A stretch of DNA of 64,000 bases, taken from assembly GCA_020059465.1 (NCBI GenBank), contig JAGVBZ010000014.1, positions 25,170 through 89,169 of the forward strand, read 5' to 3'. Shown here piece by piece: positions 48,973 to 64,000 of the stretch. Every line of letters begins with the position of its first letter. Within the stretch, counting starts at the first letter, position 1. Below the pieces are notes generated by a model. That model was not told the origin of the DNA, ran no database searches, and was given only the letters and a program-made list of their open reading frames with translations. The stretch is from Brevinematales bacterium. GTDB taxonomy: Bacteria; Spirochaetota; Brevinematia; Brevinematales; GWF1-51-8. Both the position numbers and the translations under genes were made by a program.

Positions 48973-49049
48973 CCCCGGCATATGCATAGGCTTCAGCCCC
49001 CGCCTGTCCGAAAAAATTTATTCTTTCCGTATAAAATACATCCTTCCGC

Positions 49050-49078
49050 TTGACGAAAACGGTATTATATATTATAAT
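49050..49078 (+). promoter_or_regulatory. sigma70-type promoter (TTGACG-17-TATAAT)
   Basis: Reads cTTGACGaaaacggtattatatatTATAATac, about 25 nt upstream of the AGGAGG Shine-Dalgarno and ATG 49105. Confidence 0.55.
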
Positions 49079-49104
49079 ACTCTAATATGATACAGGAGGC
49101 TTTC

Positions 49105-50685: not shown

Positions 50686-50739
50686 AGACTGCCGTATGCC
50701 CGGCAGGTACGGAAGAACCGGACAAAAGTAAGTTTTTAG

Positions 50740-50767
50740 TTGAAATATTTTCGTGTTATGATATACT
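50740..50767 (+). promoter_or_regulatory. possible sigma70-type promoter (TTGAAA-16-TATACT)
   Basis: Reads agTTGAAAtattttcgtgttatgaTATACTtatc, upstream of AGGAGG and ATG 50800. Confidence 0.4.
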
Positions 50768-50799
50768 TATCATAGATTCAAATACTTCAGGAGGATTCT

Positions 50800-51801
50800 A
50801 TGAAAATCGACCGCAGATGGATGAAGGGAGTGTTATTAGCTACAGCGGGAATATTTTTTATCACCGGATTGGTTACGGCAAAATTCTGGAATAAGCCAAA
50901 AAAGGATAAGCCGAAAGATGACAAAGTGGATACGTCGAAATTAGCTGCCGATTTTAAGGCGACTGATGTGACTTCCGGTAAAAAAATAACTTTATCCGCA
51001 TATAAAGGTAAAGTGGTAGTACTCAATTTCTGGGCGACATGGTGTCCTCCCTGTGTAGGCGAGATTCCCGATCTGATCAAGCTGAACAAGACATACGGAG
51101 ATAAACTTGTCGTACTTGGCGCATCGGTTGATAACGGTCCTGATGTGGCGAAGGATTTTGTTAAGAAGAACAAAGTCGATTTCCCTGTGTTTATGGCCGA
51201 TAGTGCGATGCAAAAAGCTTACGGAGGAATACCCAGCATACCCACTACATTTATTATCAACGCGAATGGCGAGATAGTTGAAAAAATCGTCGGCGGAAAT
51301 AAGTACGATGTGTTCGTAAAAAAGGTAAAACCTTATCTGACAGAAAATATCGTCCCTACTCCTCCTACCCCCGATAAACCCGATACCGATGCTAAAAGCA
51401 AGTATGACTTCAAGGGACAGGACGTAATCAACGGGAAAAATGTTTCCCTGTCCGATTATAAGGGAAAGCCGGTAATAGTCAATTTCTTTGCAACCTGGTG
51501 CGGCCCCTGCGTGAGCGAAATTCCGGGATTTGTCAATCTTCAGAAGAAATATGACGGAAAGATTCAATTTATCGGTCTTTCGGTTGACGATGAATCGGGC
51601 GTAGTAAAGAAATTCATCAAGAATAAGGGTATCAATTTCCCGGTCATCATGAGTAAATCTGAGATCGAATCGGCGTACGGCGGTGTTTCCTCTATCCCGG
51701 TTACGGTTATACTGGACGGTAAGGGAAATCTGATCGAAAAGATCGTCGGCGGTATATCCGAAAGTGTAATGGAAAGTAAAATAAAGAAAGCGATCAAGTA
51801 A
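50800..51801 (+). CDS. membrane-anchored protein with two TlpA-like thioredoxin domains
   Basis: N-terminal TM helix, then LNFWATWCPPCVGEIP and VNFFATWCGPCVSEIP domains. Confidence 0.85.
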   Translation: MKIDRRWMKGVLLATAGIFFITGLVTAKFWNKPKKDKPKDDKVDTSKLAADFKATDVTSGKKITLSAYKGKVVVLNFWATWCPPCVGEIPDLIKLNKTYGDKLVVLGASVDNGPDVAKDFVKKNKVDFPVFMADSAMQKAYGGIPSIPTTFIINANGEIVEKIVGGNKYDVFVKKVKPYLTENIVPTPPTPDKPDTDAKSKYDFKGQDVINGKNVSLSDYKGKPVIVNFFATWCGPCVSEIPGFVNLQKKYDGKIQFIGLSVDDESGVVKKFIKNKGINFPVIMSKSEIESAYGGVSSIPVTVILDGKGNLIEKIVGGISESVMESKIKKAIK

Positions 51802-52005: not shown

Positions 52006-52034
52006 TTGACAGACGTATTATTATTTGATAATAT
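52006..52034 (+). promoter_or_regulatory. sigma70-type promoter for the Mrp/Mbx-like operon (TTGACA-17-TAATAT with TGn)
   Basis: Reads aTTGACAgacgtattattattTGaTAATATatat. A GAGGAG Shine-Dalgarno precedes GTG 52064. Confidence 0.5.
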
Positions 52035-52063: not shown

Positions 52064-52543
52064 GTGAAGTATATTGTGAAATTTTTCACAGCTTTCATCC
52101 TTTGCTTGGCGGTTTACTTTGTTTTCGCGGGAAATTTTGAGCTGGAAGAACTGATCGCCGGGGGTGTGGTGTCCCTTATCGGAGCTATCGCAATCATGAA
52201 CTTTTTCGATATCAGCGTGAAGGTGCTCAACCCGGTACGCTGGTTCTGGATGATCGTGTACATCCCGTTCTTCCTGAAAGAAATGATCAAGGCGAATTTT
52301 CATATCGCGGGGATCGTACTGAATCCCAAACTTCCTATTCATCCTACGGTAAAACGCGGCAGGATGAAGGTTGTTAACGCGGGCGCGAGAATGCTTCTCG
52401 CGAACTCGATCACGCTGACTCCCGGCACTCTTTCGGTCGATATGAAGAATGACGAGCTCGAGATTCATTGTGTCGATACCGCCGAATCGGCGGAGCAGAT
52501 CATGGCGCCGTTCGAGAAACATATCCGCCGTATCGCGGACTAA
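52064..52543 (+). CDS. Mrp/Mnh antiporter subunit E-like (MbxA position)
   Basis: LLANSITLTPGTLSVD signature of MnhE. GTG start. Confidence 0.8.
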   Translation: MKYIVKFFTAFILCLAVYFVFAGNFELEELIAGGVVSLIGAIAIMNFFDISVKVLNPVRWFWMIVYIPFFLKEMIKANFHIAGIVLNPKLPIHPTVKRGRMKVVNAGARMLLANSITLTPGTLSVDMKNDELEIHCVDTAESAEQIMAPFEKHIRRIAD

Positions 52544-52582
52544 AGATTTTTATGTTCGATAATAGTTCGATTTGAGGTTATA

Positions 52583-52840
52583 ATGGAAATAGTATTCGCG
52601 ATTCTTTTCGCGTTTTTCGCGGTTTCCCTTTCGCTCGGTATTTTCGCGCTGATCCGTCTCAAGCATCCGGTCGAGAAAATGGTTTCTCTCGACGTACTGA
52701 CTACCCTGATTACCGCAGTGCTTCTGATTACCGCGGCGCTCACTGGCAATTCGTTCATTCTTGATATTGCCATGATCTACGCGGTGCTGTCGTTCGGGGC
52801 GGTTCTTGTCGTTGCGCGTTACCGTGAGGGAGGTTTCTGA
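52583..52840 (+). CDS. Mrp/Mnh antiporter subunit F-like (MbxB position)
   Basis: 85 aa with three TM helices. SLDVLTTLITAVLL...LDIAMIYAVLSFGAVLVVARY resembles MrpF. Confidence 0.75.
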   Translation: MEIVFAILFAFFAVSLSLGIFALIRLKHPVEKMVSLDVLTTLITAVLLITAALTGNSFILDIAMIYAVLSFGAVLVVARYREGGF

Positions 52841-53175
52841 TGATCGTCATGAAAATTATCGCGTTCGTATTTTTCTTTATCGGCGCGTTTTTTATCTTCG
52901 TCGGTACACTCGGTATCGTGCGTATGCCCGACGTGTATAACAAACTGCAGGCCGGAACCAAGGCAACCACTATGGGGTTTCTTTCCGTATGCGTAGGACT
53001 GATCTTTTTCGAGCCCGCGTGGATAATCAAAGCCCTTGTGATCGCGGGGTTTGTCGTACTGACCAACCCGATCGGCAGTCACGCCCTTGCGCGCGCCGCC
53101 AAAAACTCCGGGTTGCCGTTCGCGGACGATCGGGATAAACCCTCATTGAAGAAAGATGGGGAGGCGAAGAAATGA
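52840..53175 (+). CDS. Mrp/Mnh antiporter subunit G-like (MbxC position)
   Basis: GTLGIVRMPDVYNKLQAGTKATTMG and NPIGSHALARAA are MnhG signatures. Confidence 0.8.
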   Translation: MIVMKIIAFVFFFIGAFFIFVGTLGIVRMPDVYNKLQAGTKATTMGFLSVCVGLIFFEPAWIIKALVIAGFVVLTNPIGSHALARAAKNSGLPFADDRDKPSLKKDGEAKK

Positions 53176-53441
53176 CCGCGTTTATTATCATAATCGGAGC
53201 TGTGATCTGCGCGGGCGGAATCGCGGTATTATTCGTCCGTTCGCTCAAATCCGCGGCGCTTATCACCGGAATAATCAGCCTCATCGCCGCGCTCCTTTTC
53301 GTGCTGATGAAAGCGTATGACGTCGCTATCACGGAAGCGGCGATCGGAGCGGTGCTTTCCACCGCCCTGTACTTTTTCGCGTTCCACCGCCTCGAGGAGG
53401 ACGGTCTGAAGTCCGGGAAGGGGGAAAGCGATGAAAACTAG
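53172..53441 (+). CDS. DUF4040/MbhD-like small membrane subunit
   Basis: 89 aa with three TM helices. DVAITEAAIGAVLSTALYF resembles the MnhB N-terminal/MbhD module. Confidence 0.6.
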   Translation: MTAFIIIIGAVICAGGIAVLFVRSLKSAALITGIISLIAALLFVLMKAYDVAITEAAIGAVLSTALYFFAFHRLEEDGLKSGKGESDEN

Positions 53442-54201
53442 GCACCAGTCGCTGATCGACATCGCCGCATTGGTATTCCTCGGTATCGCGGTTTACCTGA
53501 TCGCGTCCGCACTGACAGAAACATCCGGCGGCGGTAAAGGAATTAATTCCTCAGAACTGAATAAGCGAGTATCGTACCGTTATATCATAAAATCGGTGAA
53601 CCCGTCGGCAAAACCCGAAGTCAAATGGGGCGCAACGGGATATGAGGAGAGCAGCGCGAATATTGTGACCTCGATAGTCGTGAATTATCGCGGGTTCGAT
53701 ACGCTGGGCGAGGTGCTCGTACTGTTCGCGTCATCCGCGGCGGTCAGTCTCCTGATCCGAAAGCGTTCTCCGAAGAAGGTGATGCCGCCGACCGAGATTA
53801 TGACATCGGCAGTACCGGTCGTCAATCTGCTTGTCTTTATCCTCGGCGCGTTCATTATCCTGCACGGTCATCTGACGCCGGGTGGGGGTTTCCCCGGAGG
53901 CGCGGTGATCGCGACTGGGGTGATCCTTGTATCGCTCGTGTTCCGTAAGGCGTTCCGTCCGTCGATGTACCTGATGCTCGAAAGCATCGCGGGGATGGGC
54001 ATCCTGATCGTCGGGCTTCTCGGCATGGTCAATTCGGATTACTTCCTGCAGGATTTCCTTCCCGCCGGAACTATCGGTAATCTATTCTCAAGCTATTTTG
54101 CTACCATACTTTACGTACTGATCGGCGTCAAGGTCGCGGTAGAGATTTCGAATATCGGCTTTCATTTTATCAGCGAAAGTATCGGGGAGGAGGCCGTATG
54201 A
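53431..54201 (+). CDS. MnhB/MbhE-like membrane subunit
   Basis: ANIVTSIVVNYRGFDTLGEVLVLF is the MnhB-domain signature. Confidence 0.75.
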   Translation: MKTRHQSLIDIAALVFLGIAVYLIASALTETSGGGKGINSSELNKRVSYRYIIKSVNPSAKPEVKWGATGYEESSANIVTSIVVNYRGFDTLGEVLVLFASSAAVSLLIRKRSPKKVMPPTEIMTSAVPVVNLLVFILGAFIILHGHLTPGGGFPGGAVIATGVILVSLVFRKAFRPSMYLMLESIAGMGILIVGLLGMVNSDYFLQDFLPAGTIGNLFSSYFATILYVLIGVKVAVEISNIGFHFISESIGEEAV

Positions 54202-54578
54202 ATCCGGGTAACGTTTTCCTGATTACCGCAGGCGCGGTAATGACTATCGGGGTGTTCGGCATCCTGACCCGCAGTAATATTATCAAGATACTGCTTTCGA
54301 TAAATATCCTCCAGACCGGCGTGAACCTTCTGATGATCGCGTTGGGATACAAGGAGGGCGCGGCCGCGCCGATTATCACCCAGCAGGTGACGAGCGCGGC
54401 GGCGATGGTCGATCCGCTCCCGCAGGCTCTCGTGCTGACTTCCATAGTCATCGCGTTCGGGACTACCGCGGTAGGCCTGGTGATCTGCCTGAATTATTTT
54501 CATACCCATAAATCGCTCGAGGTTCATTCGCTCGGTAACGAGGAACGGGAACATCAGCAGAAAGAGGTGGTCGAGTGA
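54198..54578 (+). CDS. MnhC/NuoK-like membrane subunit (MbxG position)
   Basis: GVFGILTRSNIIKILLSINILQTGVNLLMIALGY resembles MrpC/NuoK. Confidence 0.8.
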   Translation: MNPGNVFLITAGAVMTIGVFGILTRSNIIKILLSINILQTGVNLLMIALGYKEGAAAPIITQQVTSAAAMVDPLPQALVLTSIVIAFGTTAVGLVICLNYFHTHKSLEVHSLGNEEREHQQKEVVE

Positions 54579-56107
54579 AAGGTTTAAACCCCACACTGTT
54601 CCTTATACTGCCGCTGATAGCGGCGTTTCTCCTCCCGCTCGGAACAATTATTCATAAACGTTTCGGGAAACTCCTGAATGTGGTCACGTACGGAATCGGT
54701 ATCGCTATCGGGATCACCCTGCTCATGCCGACCCTGCTGACCGGAGGGACTGTCATCCAGATGGGCGGATGGCCCGCGCCGTACGGGATCGTACTCTACC
54801 TCGGCCCGTTGGCGCTCTGCGCAGGTATAATGATCTACCTGATCGCGCTCCTGATCGAGATCAATGATATAAATAAGTCACGGACGACGTACTTCCACCT
54901 GCTGTTCAATCTGTTCATCTTTGCGTCAATAGCGATGCTGATGACGTCCGACCTGTTCAATATGTTCGTAATGATGGAAATAGGAAGTATCGCAGTTGCG
55001 GGTATGGCATCGTCCGCGAGTATGCGGATGGGTTCGCGCGGCGGTTTCAAATATATCGTCATGAGCGGGCTGGTGTCGATGCTGATGCTGGCCGCAATCG
55101 GCCTCCTGTACTCCGCGACCGGAACACTGAATATCGCGCATCTCGCGTCCCGTACGTCCGACGTGCTCAACCCGTCGTTCGGGTTCATCGTGGGGCTGGG
55201 TCTGATGTTCGCGATGTTTTTCGAGACCGAGCAGTTCCCGTTCAATTCATGGGTGCCTGAAATCTACGAGGGCGCTCCGTCCTCGCTGACCGCCGCGATA
55301 TCGGGTATCGGCGGAATTGCCGCTGTGGGGGTATTCGGGAGGATTATCTTCACCCTGATACAGGGAGGCAGTATTTTCTACGGTATCTTCCCGAAACTCA
55401 GTCTGATTATATTCATAGTAGCGATAGCGAGCGTCCTGATAGGCGAGATCGCCGCGTTCAACGAGCAGAACCTCAAGAAGATGCTCGGCTTCTCGACAGT
55501 CGCGCAGTTCGGGCTGATCCTGATGGCGTTCGCGGCAGGCGGGCAGAACGGCGCGCTCGCCGGAATCTACCTTGTCCTGTCGCATACGGTCGCGAAACCC
55601 GCGCTTCTTTTTATCGCGGGATTCTTTTCGAAGGCGTCGGATAAGGGTAACTGGAAGGATATGAAGGGTATCGGGCGGAGGTTTCCGTTCCTCGGCGGTG
55701 CGTTCATCGCGCTGTCGCTGTCGATCATGGGGGTACCGATGTTCTTCGGGTTCTGGGGTAAGCTCGAGCTTCTTCAGACTCTGATATCCGGCAATATTTT
55801 AAGCAAGATCGCGTTCGGCGCGGTATTGCTGGGCGCTGTCTTCGAGGGGATTTACCTTCTCAGGGTGGGGCATTCGTTCTTCGAGAAGCCCGACGGCGCC
55901 GATGTGAAGAAATTCGACCCGAAGGGCGCGTTTATGACCGCGATTCCCGTACTGATCCTCGCGTTGATCGTTGTGGTGCTCGGGGTCTATCCCCAGAGCA
56001 TCGTCTGGTCGTTACAGAAAATCGCCGCCGATCTGGTGGATCGGACGCAATATATAGCTCATATCCTGCCGAACCTGATACCGGCAGTCCCGGGAGGCGG
56101 TCTATGA
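54575..56107 (+). CDS. MrpD/NuoN/NuoM-type proton-conducting antiporter-like subunit (MbxH position)
   Basis: 510-aa polytopic protein with the FNSWVPEIYEGAPS and MLGFSTVAQFG motifs typical of this family. Confidence 0.85.
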   Translation: MKGLNPTLFLILPLIAAFLLPLGTIIHKRFGKLLNVVTYGIGIAIGITLLMPTLLTGGTVIQMGGWPAPYGIVLYLGPLALCAGIMIYLIALLIEINDINKSRTTYFHLLFNLFIFASIAMLMTSDLFNMFVMMEIGSIAVAGMASSASMRMGSRGGFKYIVMSGLVSMLMLAAIGLLYSATGTLNIAHLASRTSDVLNPSFGFIVGLGLMFAMFFETEQFPFNSWVPEIYEGAPSSLTAAISGIGGIAAVGVFGRIIFTLIQGGSIFYGIFPKLSLIIFIVAIASVLIGEIAAFNEQNLKKMLGFSTVAQFGLILMAFAAGGQNGALAGIYLVLSHTVAKPALLFIAGFFSKASDKGNWKDMKGIGRRFPFLGGAFIALSLSIMGVPMFFGFWGKLELLQTLISGNILSKIAFGAVLLGAVFEGIYLLRVGHSFFEKPDGADVKKFDPKGAFMTAIPVLILALIVVVLGVYPQSIVWSLQKIAADLVDRTQYIAHILPNLIPAVPGGGL

Positions 56108-57999
56108 TCTGGACGGATTATATCCTCTTTTTAAATATCGCCGTACCCGTTGCGGTCGGCATAATCTCGCTCTTATTCTTCGGATGGGCGAAAAAAATCC
56201 AATGGATACTTTTTGCCCTGACAGTCGCGGTGCAGGCGTTCTTCGCGGTCTCTATGTTCGGCATGCCCGCGCATACGGAGACGATCTCCCTGCCGATTAC
56301 CGTGATGAACCTGAACCAGCTCGAACTGACGGTGCGGAACGGCGGGCTTGGTATGCTTTTCTTCCTGATTACCGTTGTCGTGACCGTAGTCATTTCAATG
56401 TTCTCACTCTCATATAACGATAAAGACCATGCGACGGCTATCGCGCCTTTATGGACGATGCTGATGGGCGCGAACGCGGGGATATTCTTCTCCGGGGACT
56501 GGGTGACATTCCTGCTCGCGTGGGAGCTGATGGGATGGACGTCGTTCTTCATCATCTCGCACGGGCGCGAGCGTTCCGGGAAGGCGGGGATGTACTACTT
56601 CGCGCAGTCGATGGTCGGGACTGCCGCTCTGCTGGCATTCGTGTTCATCGGGGTCGCGAACACCGGGTCGTTCGCCGTAAAAAATACGATCGCGTTCTAT
56701 ACCGGGCAATGGGCCTCCAATCCCGCGCTCGTGACAACCGCCGCGATTCTGCTCGTGCTGACATTCTTTACGAAATCGGCGGTATTTCCGTTCTTCATGT
56801 GGCCGTCGAAAGCCCACGCGGAGGCGCCGGACGATTTCTCGGCGTTCCTCTCGGGTATTATGATAAAATACGGCGTATTCGGTATGATCGTATTCCTCCT
56901 TCCGCTGTTTAGCGGGTATAACGGGCCGATGGTGTTCGACTCGCCCGTGTTCCTGTTCGTCGTCGGTGTTATCGGGATGTTTACCGCGCTATGGGGGACT
57001 CTCCACGCGATACGCGAGAACGATATGAAGCGGCTGATGGCGCATTCCACGGTATCGAATATCGGGTTTATACTGACCGCGTTATCGATAAATACAGCGC
57101 TCGGAATCGCCGCCGCCGTGTTCCACACGTTCAATCATATGATATTCAAGAGCAGTATCTTCCTCTCGATGGGGTCGGTCAAGTACCGCACCGGGGAGCG
57201 GGATATGCATAAACTCGGCGGGATGGCGTACAGGATGCCGCTGACGTTCTTTGTGTTCCTGCTGGGCATCATCGCTGCCGCGGGTATTCCCCCGATGAGC
57301 GGGTTCGCGTCGAAATGGATGGTGTTCCAGGCGATGTTCGAGAAACAATGGCTCCTTCCCGCGATAGTAGGGTTCTTCGCGTCCACCGCGGCGTTCCTCT
57401 ATCTTTACCGCGGACTGCACGCAATCTATCTCGGACAGCTTTCGCCGCGCTTCGAAAAGGTCAAGGAAGCCCCGTTCCTGCAGGCGGCGGCGCAGGCTAT
57501 CCTGATGCTCGCGGTGTTCGCCGTGGGGCTATTCCCCGGACTGGTACTGATACCGGTAAACAACACCCTCGCGGAACTCGGGATGAAGCCGCTAGAACTG
57601 GATTTATACAATATCAAGGGAGTGACCAGTTCGCTGAATATCACTTCGATAGGGCTGGCGTTCATGGGGGCGTTCGCGATAGTGTTCGTGCTCTTCCTGA
57701 TCGGGAAGAAGCGTCGCTATGTCAAGCAGATGGACACCTATACGTCCGGCGAAACCCCGTCCGACTGGGGTGTGAACGAGGATAAACTGCATTACGCATA
57801 TAACTTTTACGAACCGATAGAGAAGTTTTTCGAGCCGTTCCTGAACGGGTTCTCGATGGATAAGCTGTTCACCCGTATCGCGTACGAGGCGAAACGCGTC
57901 AGCAACGCGGTGCAGAAATGGTTTAACAGCCCTCAGACGGGTATTATCCTTCTCGGATTTCTCGCGGTGCTCGCATTGGCGCTCGGGAGGCTGTTATGA
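56104..57999 (+). CDS. MrpD/NuoL-type antiporter-like subunit with C-terminal extension (MbxH' position)
   Basis: 631 aa with WELMGWTSFF, FFMWPSKAHAEAPDDFSAFLSG and LMAHSTVSNIG motifs, plus an extra C-terminal helical segment. Confidence 0.85.
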   Translation: MIWTDYILFLNIAVPVAVGIISLLFFGWAKKIQWILFALTVAVQAFFAVSMFGMPAHTETISLPITVMNLNQLELTVRNGGLGMLFFLITVVVTVVISMFSLSYNDKDHATAIAPLWTMLMGANAGIFFSGDWVTFLLAWELMGWTSFFIISHGRERSGKAGMYYFAQSMVGTAALLAFVFIGVANTGSFAVKNTIAFYTGQWASNPALVTTAAILLVLTFFTKSAVFPFFMWPSKAHAEAPDDFSAFLSGIMIKYGVFGMIVFLLPLFSGYNGPMVFDSPVFLFVVGVIGMFTALWGTLHAIRENDMKRLMAHSTVSNIGFILTALSINTALGIAAAVFHTFNHMIFKSSIFLSMGSVKYRTGERDMHKLGGMAYRMPLTFFVFLLGIIAAAGIPPMSGFASKWMVFQAMFEKQWLLPAIVGFFASTAAFLYLYRGLHAIYLGQLSPRFEKVKEAPFLQAAAQAILMLAVFAVGLFPGLVLIPVNNTLAELGMKPLELDLYNIKGVTSSLNITSIGLAFMGAFAIVFVLFLIGKKRRYVKQMDTYTSGETPSDWGVNEDKLHYAYNFYEPIEKFFEPFLNGFSMDKLFTRIAYEAKRVSNAVQKWFNSPQTGIILLGFLAVLALALGRLL

Positions 58000-58892
58000 T
58001 GGAGGTATTGAACGTAATCGGCTACTCGTTCTTTGTGATGGCGGCCGGATTATTATATATGGGTATCGGGCGAAAGGTCGCGGCGCGTCTGCACAGGCGT
58101 TACGGGCCTCCGGTATGGCAGTGTTATGTCGACGTTGTCAAGTGCTTCTCGCGGAAGAGCATCTCGCATAACTTCATCATGGACCTCGGTTCGATGATGG
58201 GGCTTTCGGGGCTATTAGGAGCGGCGATGTTCATCCCGATCGCGGGATTCCTGCCATTCCCGTCACAGGGCCCGATCATCGTCATCCTATATCTCATGCC
58301 GATCGGCTACCTCGGTATGGCGATGGGCGTATCGGCGTCGGGCAATCCCCTTGCTGCGATCGGTATCGGAAGGGCGCTGACCCTGATGATCGGATACGAG
58401 GTACCGTTTGCGACCATCGTACTATCGTTTATCGCGACCTATTCCAGCACCGGGCTGGTGCCGCTTCAGGCGGTTCAGGCGGGCGGGATCGCGAACTGGC
58501 ACATGATGACCATGCCGTTCGGGTTTGCGGCGGCTTTGATCGCGCTGATGGGTATGCTCGGTAAGAAGCCGTTCGATACGATGATCGCGCCGTCGGAGAT
58601 CGCGTCCGGGCCGATGGTCGAGCTTTCGGGGAAATTCCTCGGGCTTGCGTTCCTCCAGCACGCCGCCGCGATATTTGTCGAGACCGGCTTGATCGTGTTG
58701 TTGTTTCTTGGCGGGGCGTCGAATGTCTTTGAGTTTATCGGGAAACAGGCCGCCGTATATATCGTGATGGCATCGCTCAGCGAGTTGTGGGCGCGTTACA
58801 GGGTAGAGCAGGCGACCAAGTTCCTGTGGATTTCCGCCGGATCGCTTGCGCTTGTCCAACTCGTTATCAACATGATAATCGGGAGGAAATAA
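57996..58892 (+). CDS. NuoH/HycD-like membrane subunit (MbxM position)
   Basis: GRKVAARLHRRYGPP and SGPMVELSG resemble complex I subunit 1 and formate hydrogenlyase subunit 4. Confidence 0.8.
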   Translation: MMEVLNVIGYSFFVMAAGLLYMGIGRKVAARLHRRYGPPVWQCYVDVVKCFSRKSISHNFIMDLGSMMGLSGLLGAAMFIPIAGFLPFPSQGPIIVILYLMPIGYLGMAMGVSASGNPLAAIGIGRALTLMIGYEVPFATIVLSFIATYSSTGLVPLQAVQAGGIANWHMMTMPFGFAAALIALMGMLGKKPFDTMIAPSEIASGPMVELSGKFLGLAFLQHAAAIFVETGLIVLLFLGGASNVFEFIGKQAAVYIVMASLSELWARYRVEQATKFLWISAGSLALVQLVINMIIGRK

Positions 58893-59449
58893 TGCTGAAA
58901 ATCAGCAGGGAAGAAATTATAGACGGGAAGTTCGAGCGGGTGCTGAACTTTTTCCGAAGCCGAAGCCTCTGGATGCTGTACTACTGTACCGGATGCGGCG
59001 CGGTGGAACTTCCGCCGACGATGACCAGCCGTTTCGATATGGAGCGTTTCGGGATCAGCCCGATGGCCACTCCGCGTCAGGCGGACATTTTATTGGTTAC
59101 GGGTTATGTGTCGGTAAAAACGTTAAAAAGAATCGTTTATTCGTACGAGCAGATGCCGGAGCCGAAGTGGGTCGTAGGGTTCGGGTCGTGCCCTGTCAAC
59201 GGCGGTATTTACTGGAACAGCTACGCGACCATCAACCAGCTTGATAAGTATATCCCGGTGGATATCAGTATCCCCGGATGCATGCCGCGCCCGCAGGCTG
59301 TGATCGACGGGCTTCTTTCGCTGATGGATTCGATCAAGAAGGGCGAGGCGGTGGGCTACAAGAAGTACAGGATGAATAACGATTGGTATAAAAAGAACCA
59401 GCGCGAGATACTTGAACGGACGAAACCGGTGCTGGGAGGAAAGAAATGA
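58892..59449 (+). CDS. NuoB/[NiFe]-hydrogenase small-subunit-like Fe-S subunit (MbxJ position)
   Basis: The ATG overlaps the previous stop (TAATG). Cluster ligands are YYCTGCGAVE, GSCPVNGG and PGCMPRP. Confidence 0.85.
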   Translation: MLKISREEIIDGKFERVLNFFRSRSLWMLYYCTGCGAVELPPTMTSRFDMERFGISPMATPRQADILLVTGYVSVKTLKRIVYSYEQMPEPKWVVGFGSCPVNGGIYWNSYATINQLDKYIPVDISIPGCMPRPQAVIDGLLSLMDSIKKGEAVGYKKYRMNNDWYKKNQREILERTKPVLGGKK

Positions 59450-59931
59450 CGAACAGGGATATGGCGGCCAAGATCGCAGGGGGATGGTCGGACGCGGAAG
59501 CGGTGCCCCGTTTCCATAACCAGATAGAGGTCACATGCGGCAATCCCGACACGATAGCGGGAATGCTCCATTATATTCAGTCCCTCGGATTCGAGCACAT
59601 GTCGAACCTGACCTGTGTGGATTGGCTTGAGGAGAACCGTTTCGACGTCACCTATAACCTCTGGTCGTACAAGTATAAGATTCAAGCGACAGTGAAAGCG
59701 GGAATCGACCGCGGCGAACCGAAAATCCCGACGGTCATGGATGTATGGCCGCAGGCGCAGGCGTACGAGCAGGAAATTCACGAAATGTTTGGGGTGGATT
59801 TTATCGGCAATCCCGACCTTTCGTCCCTATTCCTGCATAATTGGAAGGATATCCCGCCTCTGCGGAAGGATTTCGATACCGAGGCGTATTCTAAAGAGGC
59901 CTACGGCGCGCAACGTAATAAAGAGGTATAG
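59446..59931 (+). CDS. NuoC-like subunit (MbxK position)
   Basis: LTCVDWLEENRFDVTYNLWS...QAYEQEIHEMFGVDFIGNPD is the 30-kDa subunit signature. Confidence 0.8.
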   Translation: MTNRDMAAKIAGGWSDAEAVPRFHNQIEVTCGNPDTIAGMLHYIQSLGFEHMSNLTCVDWLEENRFDVTYNLWSYKYKIQATVKAGIDRGEPKIPTVMDVWPQAQAYEQEIHEMFGVDFIGNPDLSSLFLHNWKDIPPLRKDFDTEAYSKEAYGAQRNKEV

Positions 59932-59933
59932 CT

Positions 59934-61082
59934 ATGGAACCCGTATTTTACGAACTGACTAAACTCGCGCAGAACGACCAGTATACCACCTACGAGATGT
60001 TCTTCGGCCCGAACCACCCCGGCATGCACGGGAACTTCGGGTATGTTGTCGAGGCGGTAGGCGCGACCGTAGTGAAAGTCAGGGTGAACGCCGGACTCCT
60101 GCACCGCGGGTTCGAGAAGCTGATGGAGACCAAGGGATGGTTCCAGAACCTGAGCCTGATACCGCGTATCTGTGTGGTCGATCCCGACCCGAACGAGGTC
60201 GCGTACTGTATGGCGGCGGAACGGCTCTGCGGGATGGAAATCCCCGAGAAGGCGAAATACCTCCGCAGCCTGACGCTCGAAATGAGCCGGCTCACGTCGC
60301 TCCTGATGGGGATGGGCGCGCTCGGCGCGATGATGGGGCTTTACAGCTCGATGTACCGGATGATGACCGACCGCGATTATGTCCTCGACCTGTTCGAATG
60401 GCTCACCGGAGCGCGTATTTATCATATCTATAATGTTCCCGGCGGTGTCCGCAGGGATATCCCCGACGGATTCCTCGCGAAGCTGACGGAAGTCCTCGAT
60501 ACGTTGGAGTATAACCTGAAGGAATGGGACAACCTCGTATTCGAGAACCCTGTAGTGCATAAGCGTCTCACAGGGATAGGATATATCACCGCCGAAGAAG
60601 CGGTGCATTACGGCCTAGTCGGGCCGAATCTCCGCGCGACCGGGTTTCTCGCCGATGTGCGGAAGGACGACCCGTATGCCGCGTATCCGTACCTCGATTT
60701 CGAGACCCCTGTCACTCATGGAGGGGACGCGCTCGCGAGAGCGGTTCAGGTACGGAAAGAGTATGAGATGTCTATTAAACTGGTACGCCAGATTATAAAA
60801 AAGATGCCGAAATCGAAGGAAATCCGCCTGAAGGCTGGGAATACCCTGAAGTTTGTCGTACCTCCCGGCGATACATACGCGCGTGTGGAGTCGTCGAAGG
60901 GCGAGTACGGGTATTATGTCGTATCGGACGGCGGACTGAAACCGTACCGGGTATCGGTACGCGGGCCGTCGCTTCCGGCGGGGCTGACGCTCTGCCATAA
61001 GCACCTGCCGGGCATGGATATTTCGGATGTGGCGATATGGATGGCGAGTTACGCCGTATGTCCGCCGGATATAGACCGCTAA
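59934..61082 (+). CDS. NuoD/[NiFe]-hydrogenase large-subunit homologue lacking a complete NiFe site (MbxL position)
   Basis: FGPNHPGMHG, HRGFEKL and ESSKGEYGYYVVSDG motifs. The N-terminal site reads RICVVD and the C-terminus reads VCPPDIDR. Confidence 0.85.
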   Translation: MEPVFYELTKLAQNDQYTTYEMFFGPNHPGMHGNFGYVVEAVGATVVKVRVNAGLLHRGFEKLMETKGWFQNLSLIPRICVVDPDPNEVAYCMAAERLCGMEIPEKAKYLRSLTLEMSRLTSLLMGMGALGAMMGLYSSMYRMMTDRDYVLDLFEWLTGARIYHIYNVPGGVRRDIPDGFLAKLTEVLDTLEYNLKEWDNLVFENPVVHKRLTGIGYITAEEAVHYGLVGPNLRATGFLADVRKDDPYAAYPYLDFETPVTHGGDALARAVQVRKEYEMSIKLVRQIIKKMPKSKEIRLKAGNTLKFVVPPGDTYARVESSKGEYGYYVVSDGGLKPYRVSVRGPSLPAGLTLCHKHLPGMDISDVAIWMASYAVCPPDIDR

Positions 61083-61166
61083 GTCCTGCGGACGGCTAAT
61101 CCCGATATCGCGCGTGTGTTTAAGGATATATTAATAGCCCGTGATGAGGGGCACGATATAAGCATG

Positions 61167-61714
61167 GTCATCCTGAGCCGGTCGAAGGATGCCACTGCGA
61201 GCGAAAGCGAAGCAGCCGGTAGATTGCTTCGTCACACTGTTCCTCGCAATGACAGGGGATTTCCCTGAGTGTACCTCGGCAATGCTCGGCGTGACGGACG
61301 GGATGACTGGTGGGATGAATGAGAATTGTCATCCTGAGCCGGTCGAAGGATGTCACTGCGGGACGCGCAGAGGTGATGCAGTCGGTGATGACAGATTGCT
61401 TCGTCACTCTGTTCCTCGCAATGACAGGGGATTTCCCTGAGTGTAACTCGACAGGCTCGGCGGGACGGATGGGATGACTAGCGGGATGAATGAGAATTGT
61501 CATCCTGAGCCGGTCGAAGGATGTTACTGCGAGCGAAAGCGAAGCAGCCGGTAGATTGCTTCGTCACTTTGTTCCTCGCAATGACAGGGGATTTCCCAGA
61601 GTGTATCTCGGCAATGCTCGGCGTGACGAATGGGATGACTGGCGGGATGAATGAAAATTGTCATCCTGAGCCGGTCGAAGGATGTCACTGCGAGCGAAAG
61701 CGAAGCAGTCTGAG
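61167..61714. repeat. tandem array (3.3 copies) of a 161-171-bp hairpin-forming REP/MITE-like repeat
   Basis: Units start at 61167, 61328, 61499 and 61660 with gtcatcctgagccggtcgaaggatg. Each holds the imperfect palindrome gtcactgcgagcgaaagcgaagca...tgcttcgtcac..ttcctcgcaatgac. Confidence 0.9.
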
Positions 61715-61758
61715 AAATATGTATGATTTTTCACGTGTTACCGATATAGGAGGAACGC

Positions 61759-63606
61759 ATGAGCGGTCCGGGTAAAAAAAGTTTCTTCTCACCGTTTAAA
61801 CTGCTGAAAAATTTTCTAAAAAAGCCCCTCACCGTGCGGGTCCCGTTCGAGGATATCGATACGCTCGGACGCATAGGCGCATCGCCGGAATACCGGGGGT
61901 TTCATTATAACGACCACGAACTCTGTATCGGGTGCGGGACATGCCAGGAAATCTGTACGACCGACGCTATCCGGATGGTCGAGGGCGCGAATATCGGTGA
62001 GGGTAAGCTCGGTAAGGTGCCGGAGATCGATTACGGGCGGTGCTGTTACTGCGGGTTCTGTGTGGATATGTGCACCACGGGGTCATTGTCGATGAGCCGT
62101 CATTATCTCGGTAATTACCCGACTCCGGTCGATAAGATCGGGAACGCCGAAGTGGACGATCTGAAGGAACATTTTATATGGACGCCGGAGATGCAGTATT
62201 CCGACGATCCGGGGCATATGGCGTCCGACGATCAGGTGTGGCTCGACCTCGAACGTATCCCGATGACGGAACTGTCCCCGGAAGAGCGTTGGGACAGCTT
62301 TATCGAAATAGTGCGGGGCTTCACGAAGGACGAGGCGCTGAGAGAGGCGTCGAGATGCGTCGAATGCGGTGTGTGTGTCGAGACCTGCCCGGCGAATATG
62401 CGTGTTCCGCAGTATATTCACGCGATATGGGACGGCGACCTCGAACAGTCGGTACGCGAGATGTACAGTGAAAACTCCCTGCCCGGTATCTGCGGGAGGG
62501 TATGTACGCATAAATGCGAGACAGTGTGTTCCATAGGGCACCGCGGCGAGCCGGTCGCGATACGATGGCTGAAGCGCTACGCGGTAGAGAGTCTACCGGT
62601 CGATAAGGTCGCGGAGATCGCGGGTGAGATGACGGCGAAGACCGCCGGGAAGAAGAACCGGGTCTCAATCATCGGGTCCGGCCCTGCGGGTTTGTCCGCC
62701 GCGTATTATCTCGCGGGGATGGGATATCAAATTACGGTGTACGATTCGAATAAAAAGACCGGCGGCGTGATGCGTTACGGTATACCGAAGTACCGCCTGC
62801 CGGACGAGCACCTTGACCGCGATGTCGAGGTTATCAAGCGCATGGGCGTCGAGTTCAAGATGGGCGTACGTGTCGGGAAGAAAATAAAATTCGCCGATAT
62901 CAAGGCGCAAAGCGACGCGGTTATGATCGCGACAGGGTATGATTTGCCCCGTTCGACCGGGATAACGGGTATCGACGGGAAAAACTGCTATCAGGCATTT
63001 GATCTCCTCAAGGCGATATCCGCCGGAGAGGATGTCCCTCTCGGTAAAAAGATACTCGTAATCGGCGGCGGAAACGTCGCGTTCGATATCGCCCGTTCGC
63101 TCGCGCGTATCCAGCGGAGTAAAACGAAAAAAGTCGGCCTGACGATGGTATGCCTCGAAAGCGGAAGGGAGATTCCCGCGGATGTCGAGGAGATCAGGGA
63201 AGCGATCGATGAAGGGGTTGTCCTGTATGACGGACGGATGCCGAAGGAAGTGGTGTTCGAACGCGGCAGCCTGAAAGGACTGCGTCATATCAAATGCGTC
63301 AGCGTATTTGACGAGCAGGGTCATTTCAACCCGGTCGGCGACGAGAGCGATTCGGAGGTGTTCAACACGGATATGATAGTCGAAGCGGTGGGGCAGAAGC
63401 CCGATTTCAGTTATCTGCCCGACGATGCGATAAAGAAGATAGAGATTATCAGAGGAAAGATACTGACCGACGAACAGGGAGGCACGGCGCTGCCATGGCT
63501 TTTCGCGGCGGGTGATATCGTGCACGGGCCGGATATTATCCATGCCGTCCGTGACGGGCATAACTCGGCGAAAGCGATAGACGCTTATCTTTCCAAGGGG
63601 AAGTAA
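61759..63606 (+). CDS. fusion of a NuoI/MbxN-like 2x[4Fe-4S] ferredoxin domain with a GltD/SudA-like NAD(P)H-dependent flavoprotein
   Basis: CIGCGTCQEIC and CCYCGFCVDMC. The GltD N-terminal cluster region follows (RCVECGVCVETCP...ICGRVCTHKCETVC). Then FAD (IIGSGPAGLSAAYYL) and NAD(P)H (VIGGGNVAFDIA) Rossmann motifs and AAGDIV. Confidence 0.85.
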   Translation: MSGPGKKSFFSPFKLLKNFLKKPLTVRVPFEDIDTLGRIGASPEYRGFHYNDHELCIGCGTCQEICTTDAIRMVEGANIGEGKLGKVPEIDYGRCCYCGFCVDMCTTGSLSMSRHYLGNYPTPVDKIGNAEVDDLKEHFIWTPEMQYSDDPGHMASDDQVWLDLERIPMTELSPEERWDSFIEIVRGFTKDEALREASRCVECGVCVETCPANMRVPQYIHAIWDGDLEQSVREMYSENSLPGICGRVCTHKCETVCSIGHRGEPVAIRWLKRYAVESLPVDKVAEIAGEMTAKTAGKKNRVSIIGSGPAGLSAAYYLAGMGYQITVYDSNKKTGGVMRYGIPKYRLPDEHLDRDVEVIKRMGVEFKMGVRVGKKIKFADIKAQSDAVMIATGYDLPRSTGITGIDGKNCYQAFDLLKAISAGEDVPLGKKILVIGGGNVAFDIARSLARIQRSKTKKVGLTMVCLESGREIPADVEEIREAIDEGVVLYDGRMPKEVVFERGSLKGLRHIKCVSVFDEQGHFNPVGDESDSEVFNTDMIVEAVGQKPDFSYLPDDAIKKIEIIRGKILTDEQGGTALPWLFAAGDIVHGPDIIHAVRDGHNSAKAIDAYLSKGK

Positions 63607-64000
63607 ATGGAAGGTTTGGACGCTCTGGTACTCGCGTTCCAGATGGAAGTGAACGGCGCGGATTTCTACCATCAGTTTGCGGAAAAGGTATCCGATCCGG
63701 AGATGAGCGCGATTCTCGATGAACTGGCGAAGATGGAGGAAGAACATATCACCTATATTTCCGGGAAAATCGCGGAGATCAGGGCGAAGTATAAGCAATT
63801 ACCGGGAATACCCGAACTGGGGATAGATTTATATCAGCGGCGATTGGATACGATGAAAATCGAGAAGCACCTGATCGAAGAGAATCTTGGGAAATACTTC
63901 ATACTCCGTATGGCATATTATCTGGAAAAAGATTTTTTTGATTTTTATACCAGAGCGGCCGATAAGCACGGCGGGGAAACGAAAGCTGTCTTCGAGCACC
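63607..64000 (+). CDS. rubrerythrin/ferritin-like domain protein (3' end outside window)
   Basis: ATG directly follows the TAA of the upstream gene. Manual translation gives MEGLDALVLAFQMEVNGADFYHQFAEKV...LAKMEEEHITYI...AYYLEKDFFDFYTRAA. It is absent from the track because it has no stop in the window. Confidence 0.7.
   Translation, partial: MEGLDALVLAFQMEVNGADFYHQFAEKVSDPEMSAILDELAKMEEEHITYISGKIAEIRAKYKQLPGIPELGIDLYQRRLDTMKIEKHLIEENLGKYFILRMAYYLEKDFFDFYTRAADKHGGETKAVFEH

What the first reader, a model, noticed from the sequence alone, without database searches (positions are those of the whole stretch)
61759..63606. NuoI/MbxN-like ferredoxin subunit fused to a GltD/SudA-type NAD(P)H flavoprotein
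The last subunit of the operon begins with two CxxCxxCxxxC motifs in the NuoI arrangement. It then continues, without a stop, into a complete glutamate-synthase-small-chain-like module. That module has two more Cys clusters, an FAD GxGxxG motif and an NAD(P)H GxGxxA motif.

In archaeal Mbh/Mbs, the N subunit receives electrons from free ferredoxin. A covalent NAD(P)H dehydrogenase module would instead wire pyridine nucleotides directly into the Mrp-type ion pump. Functionally this resembles the NuoEFG N-module but has an unrelated origin.
Basis: partly seen in the sequence, partly recalled or inferred. Interest (0 to 1): 0.7.

Follow-up and report, generated by a model that had tools for sequence, protein, structure and literature searches.

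The report
NADH-input subunit of bacterial Mbx complex
The gene is real: it fuses the iron-sulfur "N" subunit of a sulfur-reducing, ion-pumping membrane complex to an NAD(P)H-oxidising flavoprotein, but the same fusion is already known from Thermotoga maritima and many other bacteria, so this is a new member of a known, biochemically untested kind.

Summary
Observation confirmed. ORF 61759-63606 (+) encodes one uninterrupted 615-aa protein: an MbsN/NuoI-type 2x[4Fe-4S] domain (aa 1-117), a linker (118-165), then an NfnB/SudA/GltD-type module with 2x[4Fe-4S], FAD and NAD(P)H sites. The junction is genuine. The identical ORF occurs in independent assemblies, the linker is under purifying selection, and all 120 listed homologs share the fusion.

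It is the last gene of a 13-gene operon whose catalytic subunits are closest to the Pyrococcus furiosus MBS (Mbx) sulfane-sulfur reductase, not to complex I or MBH.

The architecture is not new. It matches NCBIfam PRK13984 end to end, the identical operon exists in Thermotoga maritima, and Degli Esposti (2015) described a gltD-type flavoprotein in the NuoI position. No biochemical or structural study was found.

Added here:
- Leu-Glu replaces the NADPH-binding Arg-Arg pair, suggesting NADH preference.
- Rex-type operators sit at the operon head in two lineages.
- A rubrerythrin-like module is adjacent or fused in 4 of 8 lineages.

Most likely mechanism (inferred): NADH -> FAD -> four [4Fe-4S] -> MbsJ-type cluster -> sulfane sulfur, coupled to ion pumping. 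Host: a Brevinematales-like spirochete. Interest is modest.

The parts
52006..52034 (+). Promoter-like element, TTGACA - 17 nt - TAATAT, upstream of the operon
   Evidence: Read from the sequence. It is a consensus match only and is conserved in L003.
52074..52091 (+). Rex-type operator palindrome TTGTGAAATTTTTCACAG (1 mismatch to TTGTGAANNNNTTCACAA), at +10 of the first gene
   Evidence: It is the only site with 2 or fewer mismatches in the 64-kb window. I estimate about 0.02 sites of this quality by chance. It is identical in L003 although neighbouring codons differ. An equivalent 1-mismatch site lies at -60 in L020, and a Rex gene is adjacent to the operon in L019.
52064..52543 (+). MbxA/MnhE-like subunit
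   Evidence: Pfam MNHE, 6.4e-32
52583..52840 (+). MbxB/MrpF-like subunit
   Evidence: Pfam MrpF_PhaF, 3.9e-11
52840..53175 (+). MbxC/MnhG-like subunit
   Evidence: Pfam PhaG_MnhG_YufB, 7.5e-26
53172..53441 (+). MbhD/MbsD-like subunit
   Evidence: Pfam MbhD, 6.7e-17
53431..54201 (+). MbhE/MnhB-like subunit
   Evidence: Pfam MnhB 9.7e-16 and MbhE 7.7e-08
54198..54578 (+). NuoK/MnhC-like subunit (MbsG position)
   Evidence: Pfam Oxidored_q2, 4.7e-26
54575..56107 (+). First antiporter-like subunit (MrpD/NuoN type; MbsH position)
   Evidence: Pfam Proton_antipo_M, 3.5e-39
56104..57999 (+). Second, longer antiporter-like subunit (MrpA/NuoL type; MbsH' position)
   Evidence: Pfam Proton_antipo_M, 8.1e-55; 631 aa
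57996..58892 (+). NuoH/MbsM-like membrane anchor
   Evidence: Pfam NADHdh, 2.9e-50
58892..59449 (+). MbsJ-type (NuoB-like) subunit carrying the proximal [4Fe-4S] cluster
   Evidence: 6u8y_J scores 239 bits against 118 bits for MbhJ. The alignment is ungapped through the YCTGCG loop, and the Cys equivalents of MbsJ C25, C28, C93 and C123 are conserved in 6 of 6 operons.
59446..59931 (+). NuoC/MbsK-like subunit
   Evidence: Pfam Complex1_30kDa, 2.7e-31
59934..61082 (+). MbsL-type (NuoD-like) subunit
   Evidence: 6u8y_L scores 355 bits end to end, against 226 for Nqo4 and 126 for MbhL. Only the two vestigial NiFe cysteines are kept (RICV......CPPDIDR).
61083..61758 (+). Unusually long intergenic gap filled with a direct-repeat array. 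The RBS AGGAGG lies at 61748-61753.
   Evidence: No promoter-like site and only one weak terminator-like hairpin were found, so co-transcription is likely but not shown.
61759..62109 (+). Fusion protein aa 1-117: MbsN/NuoI-type domain with two [4Fe-4S] sites (C56, C59, C62, C66 and C95, C98, C101, C105)
62110..62253 (+). Fusion protein aa 118-165: linker. It varies in length between lineages. Residues up to about 156 are also present in a stand-alone N subunit (P0122).
62254..62628 (+). Fusion protein aa 166-290: NfnB/GltD N-terminal domain (Fer4_20) with two more [4Fe-4S] sites (C200, C203, C206, C210 and C245, C249, C253, C257)
62629..63606 (+). Fusion protein aa 291-615 plus stop: FAD domain (GSGPAG 306-311; invariant R346, which aligns with the flavin-N5 Arg187 of T. 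maritima NfnB) and NAD(P)H domain (GGGNVA 436-441; L466-E467 in place of the NfnB Arg-Arg pair)
63607..64000 (+). Rubrerythrin-like diiron protein. It starts directly after the fusion's stop codon (TAAATG) and is cut by the window end.
   Evidence: Pfam Rubrerythrin, 1.6e-08. The full 166-aa gene, followed by two more paralogs, is seen in L024/L025 (the same sequence) and in L003.

Best explanation
The 615-aa protein is the electron-input subunit of a 13-subunit bacterial MBS/Mbx-type membrane oxidoreductase. This is a complex-I-like enzyme built on an Mrp antiporter.

Its first ~117 residues are the MbsN/NuoI subunit (two [4Fe-4S] clusters), which sits on the MbsJ/K/L arm. Residues ~166-615 are an NfnB/SudA/GltD-type dehydrogenase with FAD and two further [4Fe-4S] clusters.

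Proposed mechanism:
1. NADH, probably preferred over NADPH, reduces the FAD.
2. Electrons pass one at a time along the four clusters of this polypeptide to the proximal cluster of the MbsJ-type subunit.
3. There a sulfane-sulfur (polysulfide-type) acceptor is reduced.
4. The reaction drives H+/Na+ translocation through the two antiporter-like subunits and the Mrp module.
5. Expression is probably derepressed by Rex when NADH/NAD+ is high.

Shown: the architecture, the cofactor motifs, the MBS-type core, the conserved synteny and the operator-like sites. Inferred: the donor, the direction of flow, the acceptor and the coupling to ion pumping.
For: 1. Real, conserved fusion. The frame is uninterrupted. 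The identical ORF occurs in independent assemblies. The linker has 13 synonymous against 2 non-synonymous codon changes. All 16 cluster cysteines, both dinucleotide motifs and R346 are at least 90% conserved in 25 sequences. The AF2 model has pTM 0.78.

2. Fixed partnership. All 8 sampled lineages have the same 13-gene operon with the fusion last: T. maritima, the window/L003 clade, L019, L020, L021, L026, L027 and L028.

3. The core is MBS-type.
- The L subunit scores 355 bits to 6u8y_L against 126 to MbhL, and keeps only the two vestigial cysteines.
- The J subunit scores 239 bits to 6u8y_J, ungapped through the short loop that leaves the proximal cluster three-coordinate in MBS.
- There are two antiporter-like subunits.
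(defining features taken from PMC7684303 and PMC8165549.)

4. Donor.
- The GltD/NfnB fold with FAD and NAD(P)H sites is intact.
- The two arginines that bind the NADP 2'-phosphate in NfnB (PMC6405883) align with L466-E467. E467 is invariant in the family. An acidic residue at the end of strand beta-2 is the textbook NAD(H) determinant.

5. Regulation fits an NADH-consuming enzyme.
- A 1-mismatch Rex-type palindrome lies at the operon head in the window/L003 clade and in the distant L020.
- A Rex gene is adjacent in L019.
- 3-mismatch sites lie at -41 in T. maritima and at -124 in L026.

6. T. maritima mbxA is induced 4.4-fold by elemental sulfur (PMC9431562).

7. Energetics, my own arithmetic. 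NADH (-320 mV) to polysulfide (about -260 mV) gives roughly 10-12 kJ per 2 e-. That is similar to the 12 kJ per 2 e- quoted for the ion-pumping MBH reaction (PMC8165549).
Against: - No biochemical datum exists for any member. Published models of T. maritima and Mesotoga still draw ferredoxin as the donor or NAD(P)+ as the acceptor.
- The driving force from NADH to polysulfide is small.
- The NADH preference rests on one sequence position.
- Rex-type sites are absent or weak in 4 of 8 lineages. No Rex gene lies in the 64 kb available, so whether this organism has Rex is unknown.
- A 676-bp repeat-filled gap separates the gene from the rest of the operon in this organism. Co-transcription is therefore assumed, not shown.
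- The recurrent rubrerythrin-like partner is not explained by this model.
Confidence: 0.55

Rival explanations
1. Output module. The complex is a ferredoxin:NAD(P)+ oxidoreductase analogous to Rnf. Reduced ferredoxin delivers electrons to the N-domain clusters, the GltD-type flavin reduces NAD(P)+, and the energy difference pumps ions.
For: This is the function assumed for bacterial mbx-like operons in PMC4758237 and for Mesotoga Mbx in bioRxiv 322537. The flavoprotein chemistry is reversible. The energy gap from ferredoxin to NAD+ is larger than that from NADH to polysulfide.
Against: - Electrons would bypass the J/L/M pocket, which is where coupling takes place in all solved relatives. Yet that pocket is conserved at about 50% identity with P. 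furiosus MBS, including its special cluster loop.
- T. maritima already has a Na+-coupled Rnf for this reaction (as cited in PMC9431562).
- Rex-type control means induction at high NADH, which suits an NADH consumer and not an NADH producer.
- No separate ferredoxin-docking feature was identified.
Confidence: 0.2
2. Bifurcating or confurcating input. The NfnB-like FAD splits the NAD(P)H electron pair. One electron goes into the low-potential [4Fe-4S] chain, giving the membrane core ferredoxin-like driving force. The other goes to a high-potential partner, such as the rubrerythrin-like diiron protein that is adjacent or fused.
For: - The flavoprotein part is closer to bifurcating NfnB/NfnI-L (271 and 243 bits) than to GltD (160 bits).
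- The flavin-N5 arginine, conserved in all Nfn homologs (PMC6405883), is invariant here as R346.
- A diiron protein is adjacent or fused in 4 of 8 lineages.
- NCBIfam also lists an NfnA-NfnB-ferritin-domain fusion, PRK12775.
Against: - No NfnA-type [2Fe-2S]/FAD partner is present in any operon.
- T. maritima and three other lineages lack the rubrerythrin-like module.
- From memory, not tested here: the Arg-containing motif also occurs in non-bifurcating dihydropyrimidine dehydrogenase.
- There is no experimental hint of bifurcation.
Confidence: 0.08
3. Peroxide and oxygen defence. The flavoprotein mainly supplies NAD(P)H electrons to the rubrerythrin-like protein, which acts as an H2O2 reductase. 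This protects the oxygen-sensitive complex or the cell, and sulfur reduction is secondary.
For: - The rubrerythrin-like gene abuts the fusion's stop codon in the window.
- It is fused to the C-terminus in the 748-764-aa variants.
- PMC4758237 notes that mbx-like operons often end with rubrerythrin.
- Thiol-redox genes lie immediately upstream in the window.
Against: - This role would not need a 12-subunit ion-pumping membrane partner, which is invariably present.
- Half of the sampled lineages have no rubrerythrin-like module.
- Some fused copies have lost the ExxH ligands (read from the alignment).
Confidence: 0.1
4. Artefact: two adjacent genes joined by a sequencing or assembly error.
For: None was found. 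Raw reads were not available to check.
Against: The identical ORF occurs in independent assemblies. The fusion is conserved in all 120 listed homologs, including complete T. maritima genomes. The linker is under purifying selection in this frame.
Confidence: 0.01

Closest known systems
Thermotoga maritima mbx-like operon and its last gene (615-aa 'oxidoreductase', P0110); NCBIfam NF010590 / PRK13984 'putative oxidoreductase'
   Same: Identical 13-gene order with the fusion last. The protein has the same length and domain order, is 48% identical, and shares all cofactor motifs. The HMM match runs end to end, 6-614 against 8-609 of 611.
   Different: - The score of 788 bits is below the model's curated equivalog cut-off of 946.
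- The host is a mesophile-like Brevinematales spirochete, not a Thermotogae member.
- The window has a 676-bp repeat-filled gap in front of the gene and rubrerythrin-like genes after it. T. maritima has neither.
Pyrococcus furiosus MBS (formerly Mbx), membrane-bound sulfane sulfur reductase, PDB 6U8Y
   Same: Same 13-subunit layout with two antiporter-like subunits. The L, J and N subunits are the best solved relatives (355, 239 and 84 bits). The two vestigial NiFe cysteines and the short MbsJ loop are present.
   Different: MbsN is a 208-aa stand-alone protein that takes electrons from free ferredoxin. Here the N subunit carries a covalently attached 450-aa FAD/NAD(P)H/2x[4Fe-4S] module.
NfnB / NfnI-L (SudA) / GltD family flavoproteins
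   Same: Same fold (TM 0.88 normalised to the target, rmsd 2.3 A to 5jfc_L), two [4Fe-4S] sites, FAD and NAD(P)H motifs, and the flavin-N5 arginine.
   Different: - No NfnA, SudB or GltB partner gene is present.
- Leu-Glu replaces the NADPH-binding Arg-Arg pair.
- The first cluster motif is the canonical CxxCxxCxxxCP.
- The module is fused to a NuoI-type domain and tied to a membrane complex.
Complex I N-module (NuoE/F/G)
   Same: Functional analogy only: a nucleotide-oxidising flavoprotein plus an iron-sulfur relay sitting on top of NuoI.
   Different: The fold and cofactor are unrelated (FAD in a two-dinucleotide-binding-domain flavoprotein, against FMN in NuoF). It is one fused polypeptide instead of three subunits, and the acceptor site is not a quinone site.
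E. coli AegA / YgfT (ferredoxin-domain plus GltD-like fusions; NF009408, NF009451)
   Same: Also an N-terminal 4Fe-4S domain fused to a GltD-like module. The match covers aa 54-612.
   Different: Much weaker match: 202 bits against 788 for PRK13984. From memory, not tested here, the AegA/YgfT N-terminal domain is not NuoI-type and the proteins are not part of Mrp-type membrane operons.

Membership tests
MbxN-GltD fusion subunit (NCBIfam NF010590 / PRK13984; T. maritima type) | Collinear full-length match to the family model | tested here: met
   aa 6-614 match profile positions 8-609 of 611, E = 5e-237.
MbxN-GltD fusion subunit (NCBIfam NF010590 / PRK13984; T. maritima type) | Score at or above the curated equivalog cut-off (946 bits) | tested here: not met
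   787.9 bits. The window protein is a divergent relative, 48% identical to the T. maritima protein, and NCBI's pipeline would not name it with this model. I therefore file it under the architecture, not under the equivalog.
MbxN-GltD fusion subunit (NCBIfam NF010590 / PRK13984; T. maritima type) | Last gene of a 13-gene Mrp plus NuoH/B/C/D-like operon | tested here: met
   Same order in the window and in 7 other lineages.
MBS/Mbx-type complex (P. furiosus MBS, 6U8Y) | Two antiporter-like subunits (H and H') plus an Mrp-type module; 13 subunits | tested here: met
   Genes at 54575-56107 and 56104-57999 both hit Proton_antipo_M. MnhE, F, G, MbhD, MnhB and NuoK homologs lie upstream.
MBS/Mbx-type complex (P. 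furiosus MBS, 6U8Y) | L subunit keeps only two of the four NiFe cysteines (MbsL C85 and C385) | tested here: met
   RICVVDP and AVCPPDIDR align with MbsL. The two Cys columns are conserved in 6 of 6 operons. The feature is taken from PMC7684303.
MBS/Mbx-type complex (P. furiosus MBS, 6U8Y) | Shortened MbsJ loop that leaves the proximal [4Fe-4S] cluster with three Cys ligands | tested here: inconclusive
   The sequence aligns without a gap to MbsJ through YCTGCG, and all four Cys columns are conserved. The actual coordination needs a structure.
MBS/Mbx-type complex (P. furiosus MBS, 6U8Y) | Ferredoxin as electron donor; polysulfide/DMTS reductase activity; Na+ gradient formation | not testable with these tools
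   Biochemical properties. The fused flavoprotein argues for a different or additional donor.
NfnB / SudA / GltD flavoproteins | Fer4_20 domain with 2x[4Fe-4S], FAD GxGxxG and NAD(P)H GxGxxA motifs, and the family fold | tested here: met
NfnB / SudA / GltD flavoproteins | Arg-Arg pair that binds the 2'-phosphate of NADP(H) | tested here: not met
   The aligned positions are L466-E467. E467 is invariant in 25 family members. The feature is taken from PMC6405883. I mapped the pair by alignment; the paper gives no residue numbers.
NfnB / SudA / GltD flavoproteins | Partner subunit (NfnA, SudB or GltB) encoded alongside | tested here: not met
   None is present in any of the 8 operon contexts.
NuoI (complex I subunit) | Two CxxCxxCxxxC(P) motifs and a match to NuoI models above their cut-offs | tested here: not met
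   The motifs are present. Scores are below the cut-offs: NF004543 gives 100 bits against 243, and TIGR01971 gives 68 against 113. The best solved relative is MbsN, not a complex I subunit.

The most novel reading that the evidence does not exclude
The NfnB-like flavin of this subunit is an electron-bifurcating site attached directly to a complex-I-like ion pump. NADH electrons are split. One is raised to ferredoxin-like potential and sent down the four-cluster wire to power sulfur reduction and pumping. The other goes to the recurrently associated rubrerythrin-like diiron protein. This would be the first membrane respiratory complex with a built-in bifurcating input.
Probability: 0.06. Interest if true: 0.85.

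Novelty: new member of a known kind. Interest (0 to 1): 0.3.

Why it matters
If the NADH-input reading is correct, this widespread family is a second, independent way of plugging pyridine nucleotides into a complex-I-type ion pump. It uses a one-piece FAD flavoprotein instead of NuoEFG. That bears on how complex I acquired its N-module.

It would also change metabolic models of Thermotogae, spirochetes and many uncultured anaerobes. Those models currently draw this complex as ferredoxin-dependent.

The family is well suited to experiment, because T. maritima is cultivable and induces the operon on sulfur. This particular window adds a mesophile-type spirochete member, not a new principle.

Tried and rejected
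- The genome-contig scan with the single protein found only distant GltD-like paralogs at 28-36% identity, because the peptide patterns were too specific.
- The literature search for 'TM1217' returned unrelated papers.
- The Schut et al. 2013 FEMS review, which I recall as the likely first description of bacterial Mbx homologs, is not held in the library.
- A search for recent biochemistry or structure of a bacterial NADH-linked MBS-type complex found nothing relevant. The PDB copy holds no chain with the fused arrangement.
- Rfam gave no hit in the repeat-filled gap. One repeat unit folds no better than shuffled sequence, z = -0.66.
- Model coordinates are not exposed, so inter-cluster distances could not be measured.
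- Single or multiple origin of the fusion: a neighbour-joining tree of the ~110-aa N-domain interleaves fusions and stand-alone proteins, but it is too weakly resolved to decide.
I found no example of separate adjacent halves, but only these two short contigs were examined.
- No Rex gene lies in the window or in loci other than L019.
- Frameshift or misassembly at the junction was considered and rejected.
Full report
**1. What is in the sequence**

ORF 61759-63606 on the + strand is a single open frame of 615 codons ending in TAA. An AGGAGG ribosome-binding site lies 5 nt upstream of the ATG.
- CxxCxxCxxxC at C56-C66 and at C95-C105.
- A third such motif at C200-C210, plus C245, C249, C253 and C257.
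- GSGPAG at 306-311.
- GGGNVA at 436-441.

Pfam finds a 4Fe-4S dicluster domain (aa 50-108), the Fer4_20 domain of dihydropyrimidine dehydrogenase/GltD (180-278, 1.8e-28) and Pyr_redox_2 (301-596, 2.7e-26).

Against solved structures:
- Residues 6-117 match subunit N of the Pyrococcus furiosus MBS complex best (6u8y_N, 7.6e-23). Complex I NuoI/TYKY subunits come next.
- Residues 165-615 match T. maritima NfnB (4ylf_B, 1.5e-79) and P. furiosus NfnI-L (5jca_L, 4.7e-71). Both score well above glutamate synthase small chains (about 1e-46).

An AlphaFold2 model built on 25 homologs has mean pLDDT 81 and pTM 0.78. Only residues 1-39 are poorly predicted. Its C-terminal 470 residues superpose on NfnI-L with TM 0.88 normalised to the target and rmsd 2.3 A.

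**2. Is the junction real?**

Yes.
- The other two forward frames are full of stops, including across codons 110-180.
- The identical protein is called on contigs from separate JGI metagenomes.
- A 91%-identical fusion is found in two further JGI metagenomes and a Logan SRA-run assembly.
- Between the window and that relative, the linker (aa 118-165) has 13 synonymous and 2 non-synonymous codon changes. That is the signature of a translated, constrained segment.
- All 120 best database hits are full-length fusions of about 570-765 aa. In an alignment of 25 of them, at 49-91% identity, every sequence runs through the junction.

I could not look at raw reads.

**3. The surroundings**

The gene is the last of thirteen co-oriented, mostly overlapping genes at 52064-63606. 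In order they are:
- MnhE, MrpF, MnhG, MbhD, MbhE/MnhB and NuoK homologs.
- Two antiporter-like (Proton_antipo_M) subunits.
- NuoH, NuoB, NuoC and NuoD homologs.
- The fusion.

The two catalytic-arm subunits are clearly of the MBS (Mbx) kind:
- The NuoD-like protein scores 355 bits end to end against MbsL (6u8y_L). It scores 226 against T. thermophilus Nqo4 and 126 against MbhL.
- The NuoB-like protein scores 239 bits against MbsJ and 118 against MbhJ.

Yu et al. single out several features for MBS (PMC7684303, PMC8165549). Those features can be read in the window and in five homologous operons:
- Two antiporter-like subunits.
- Only two surviving NiFe cysteines in L.
- A shortened Cys loop in J that leaves the proximal [4Fe-4S] cluster three-coordinate and catalytic.

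The operon is therefore an MBS/Mbx-type complex, not an MBH-type hydrogenase and not complex I.

**4. How general is the arrangement?**

I fetched the genomic context of the fusion gene in eight lineages: T. maritima MSB8/RQ2, the window clade (L003, L024), L019, L020, L021, L026, L027 and L028. All eight have the same thirteen-gene operon with the fusion last.

I then searched the N-terminal 165 residues alone against 1.8 billion representative proteins. The nearest relatives were a mixture of about 16-18 fusion clusters (550-770 aa) and stand-alone proteins of about 110-230 aa. Two stand-alone genes that could be placed have no GltD-like neighbour. One of them, P0122, covers query residues 5-156. 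So most of the 'linker' belongs to the N subunit proper, and the true fusion point is near residue 160.

A quick tree of the N-domain could not resolve whether the fusion arose once.

**5. Is it already known?**

Yes, at the level of architecture.
- NCBIfam holds a model, NF010590/PRK13984 'putative oxidoreductase'. It matches the window protein from residue 6 to 614, at 788 bits, below its equivalog cut-off of 946.
- The T. maritima protein is annotated simply 'oxidoreductase'.
[quoted passage not shown] He adds that the operon 'often terminates with rubrerythrin', and he reads the flavoprotein as the NAD(P)+-reducing site.
- Later work on T. maritima showed 4.4-fold induction of mbxA by elemental sulfur, but still drew ferredoxin as the donor (PMC9431562).
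- A Mesotoga study treats Mbx as a ferredoxin:NADP oxidoreductase.
- The MBS structure papers do not discuss the bacterial fusion.

I found no biochemical or structural study of any member.

(a) Cofactor preference. In NfnB two conserved arginines bind the 2'-phosphate of NADP+ (PMC6405883). In the HMMER alignments these are the 'YRR' residues that follow the GxGxxA strand. The window protein has L466-E467 there, and E467 is invariant in all 25 family members. An acidic residue at this position is the classical determinant of NAD(H) over NADP(H). This is an inference, because the review gives no residue numbers.

(b) Regulation.
- The window holds only one site within 2 mismatches of the Rex operator consensus TTGTGAANNNNTTCACAA. 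It is TTGTGAAATTTTTCACAG at 52074-52091, 10 nt into the first gene and about 40 nt downstream of a TTGACA-17-TAATAT promoter-like element. I estimate about 0.02 such sites by chance in the window.
- The site is identical in L003 although adjacent codons differ.
- In the distantly related L020, ATGTGAAATTATTCACAA lies at -60.
- L019 has a Rex gene next to the operon.
- T. maritima and L026 have only 3-mismatch sites, a level reached by about 4% of random windows. L027 and L028 have none.
- Rex releases DNA when NADH rises (PMC8836258). That fits an enzyme that consumes NADH.

(c) Rubrerythrin link. A rubrerythrin-like diiron protein follows the fusion gene with no spacer in the window (TAAATG). 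In the same strain three such genes sit in tandem. L026 has one adjacent. In L020 and L027 the domain is fused to the C-terminus, giving 748-753-aa proteins. That makes 4 of 8 lineages.

**7. Most likely mechanism**

NADH reduces the FAD. Single electrons pass through the two GltD-type clusters and the two N-domain clusters to the MbsJ-type proximal cluster, where sulfane sulfur or a similar acceptor is reduced. Conformational coupling through the conserved J/L/M pocket drives the two antiporter-like pumps and the Mrp module.

The free energy is small. My arithmetic gives about 10-12 kJ per 2 e- for -320 to about -260 mV. That is comparable to the 12 kJ per 2 e- quoted for MBH, which does pump.

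I put this model at about 0.55.

Rivals:
- Reverse, Rnf-like ferredoxin:NAD(P)+ reading, 0.2. It is weakened because electrons would bypass the conserved coupling pocket, and because Rex-type control would be counter-productive.
- Peroxide-defence role through rubrerythrin, 0.1.
- Bifurcating flavin, 0.08. It is not excluded: the module is closer to NfnB than to GltD, and the flavin-N5 arginine is invariant as R346.
- Artefact, 0.01.

**8. Host and verdict**

The window's PNPase is 80% identical to that of 'Spirochaetes bacterium GWF1_51_8' and about 60% identical to Brevinematia/Brevinematales MAGs. The host is therefore an uncultured Brevinematales-like spirochete.

The finding is a correct observation of a real and rather elegant fusion. 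It is a new member of a known, widely distributed and already noted architecture. Its value lies in the unanswered biochemical question, not in novelty.

Noticed in passing
window 61083-61758: The gap between the L-subunit gene and the fusion gene is 676 bp, against 10-20 bp in other lineages. It is filled with a direct-repeat array: the 25-mer GTCATCCTGAGCCGGTCGAAGGATG four times, a 61-nt unit three times and a 203-nt unit twice. The 25-mer occurs nowhere else in the 64 kb. The 91%-identical relative L003 has the same unit types in a different arrangement, while the last ~35 nt including the RBS are identical. There is no Rfam hit, and one unit folds no better than shuffles. From memory, the units resemble the widespread small repeats that give spurious ORFs such as '...LLRxxxPRNDR'. 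That resemblance was not tested.
   Followed up: partly
window 63607-64000 (cut by the window end); L024 4849-6459; L026 11848-12339; L020 and L027 C-termini: Rubrerythrin-like diiron four-helix-bundle proteins without a rubredoxin domain are adjacent to the fusion gene (three in tandem in this strain) or fused to its C-terminus. This holds in 4 of 8 lineages. Some fused copies appear to have lost ExxH ligands.
   Followed up: partly
window 48379-51801: Three thiol:disulfide oxidoreductase genes (TlpA/AhpC-TSA/redoxin type) lie immediately upstream of the operon. One has a DsbD/CcdA membrane domain followed by two redoxin domains, and another has two redoxin domains in tandem. With the rubrerythrin-like genes downstream, the operon sits in a redox-stress neighbourhood.
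   Followed up: no
L003 14132-16189 (-); L024 6472-7848 (-): Just beyond the window end, on the opposite strand, is a ~700-aa protein that combines an Fe-hydrogenase large-subunit C-terminal domain and 4Fe-4S motifs with a methyl-accepting chemotaxis signalling domain. It may be a hydrogen- or redox-sensing chemoreceptor.
   Followed up: no
L020 3839-5010: In this MAG the first antiporter-like subunit gene appears broken: a 180-aa call, where about 490 aa is expected, plus a 34-aa antisense call. It is either a pseudogene or an assembly error.
   Followed up: no
L028 10001-12001 (P0024); alignment A1 columns 529-586: The 'Spirochaetes bacterium GWB1_36_13' homolog carries an insertion of about 58 aa inside the NAD(P)H domain that is absent from all the others.
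   Followed up: no
window 45006-47294 (-) and 31782-33548 (+): A 762-aa ORF has no Pfam match at E <= 1e-5, and a 588-aa protein is made almost entirely of ankyrin repeats. An ankyrin-repeat gene also lies upstream of the operon in L021.
   Followed up: no
L021 339-356: A 1-mismatch Rex-type palindrome (TTGTAAAAAATTTCACAA) lies 551 nt upstream of the operon, ahead of a small MarR-like gene that precedes it. This may be the control point of a longer transcription unit.
   Followed up: no
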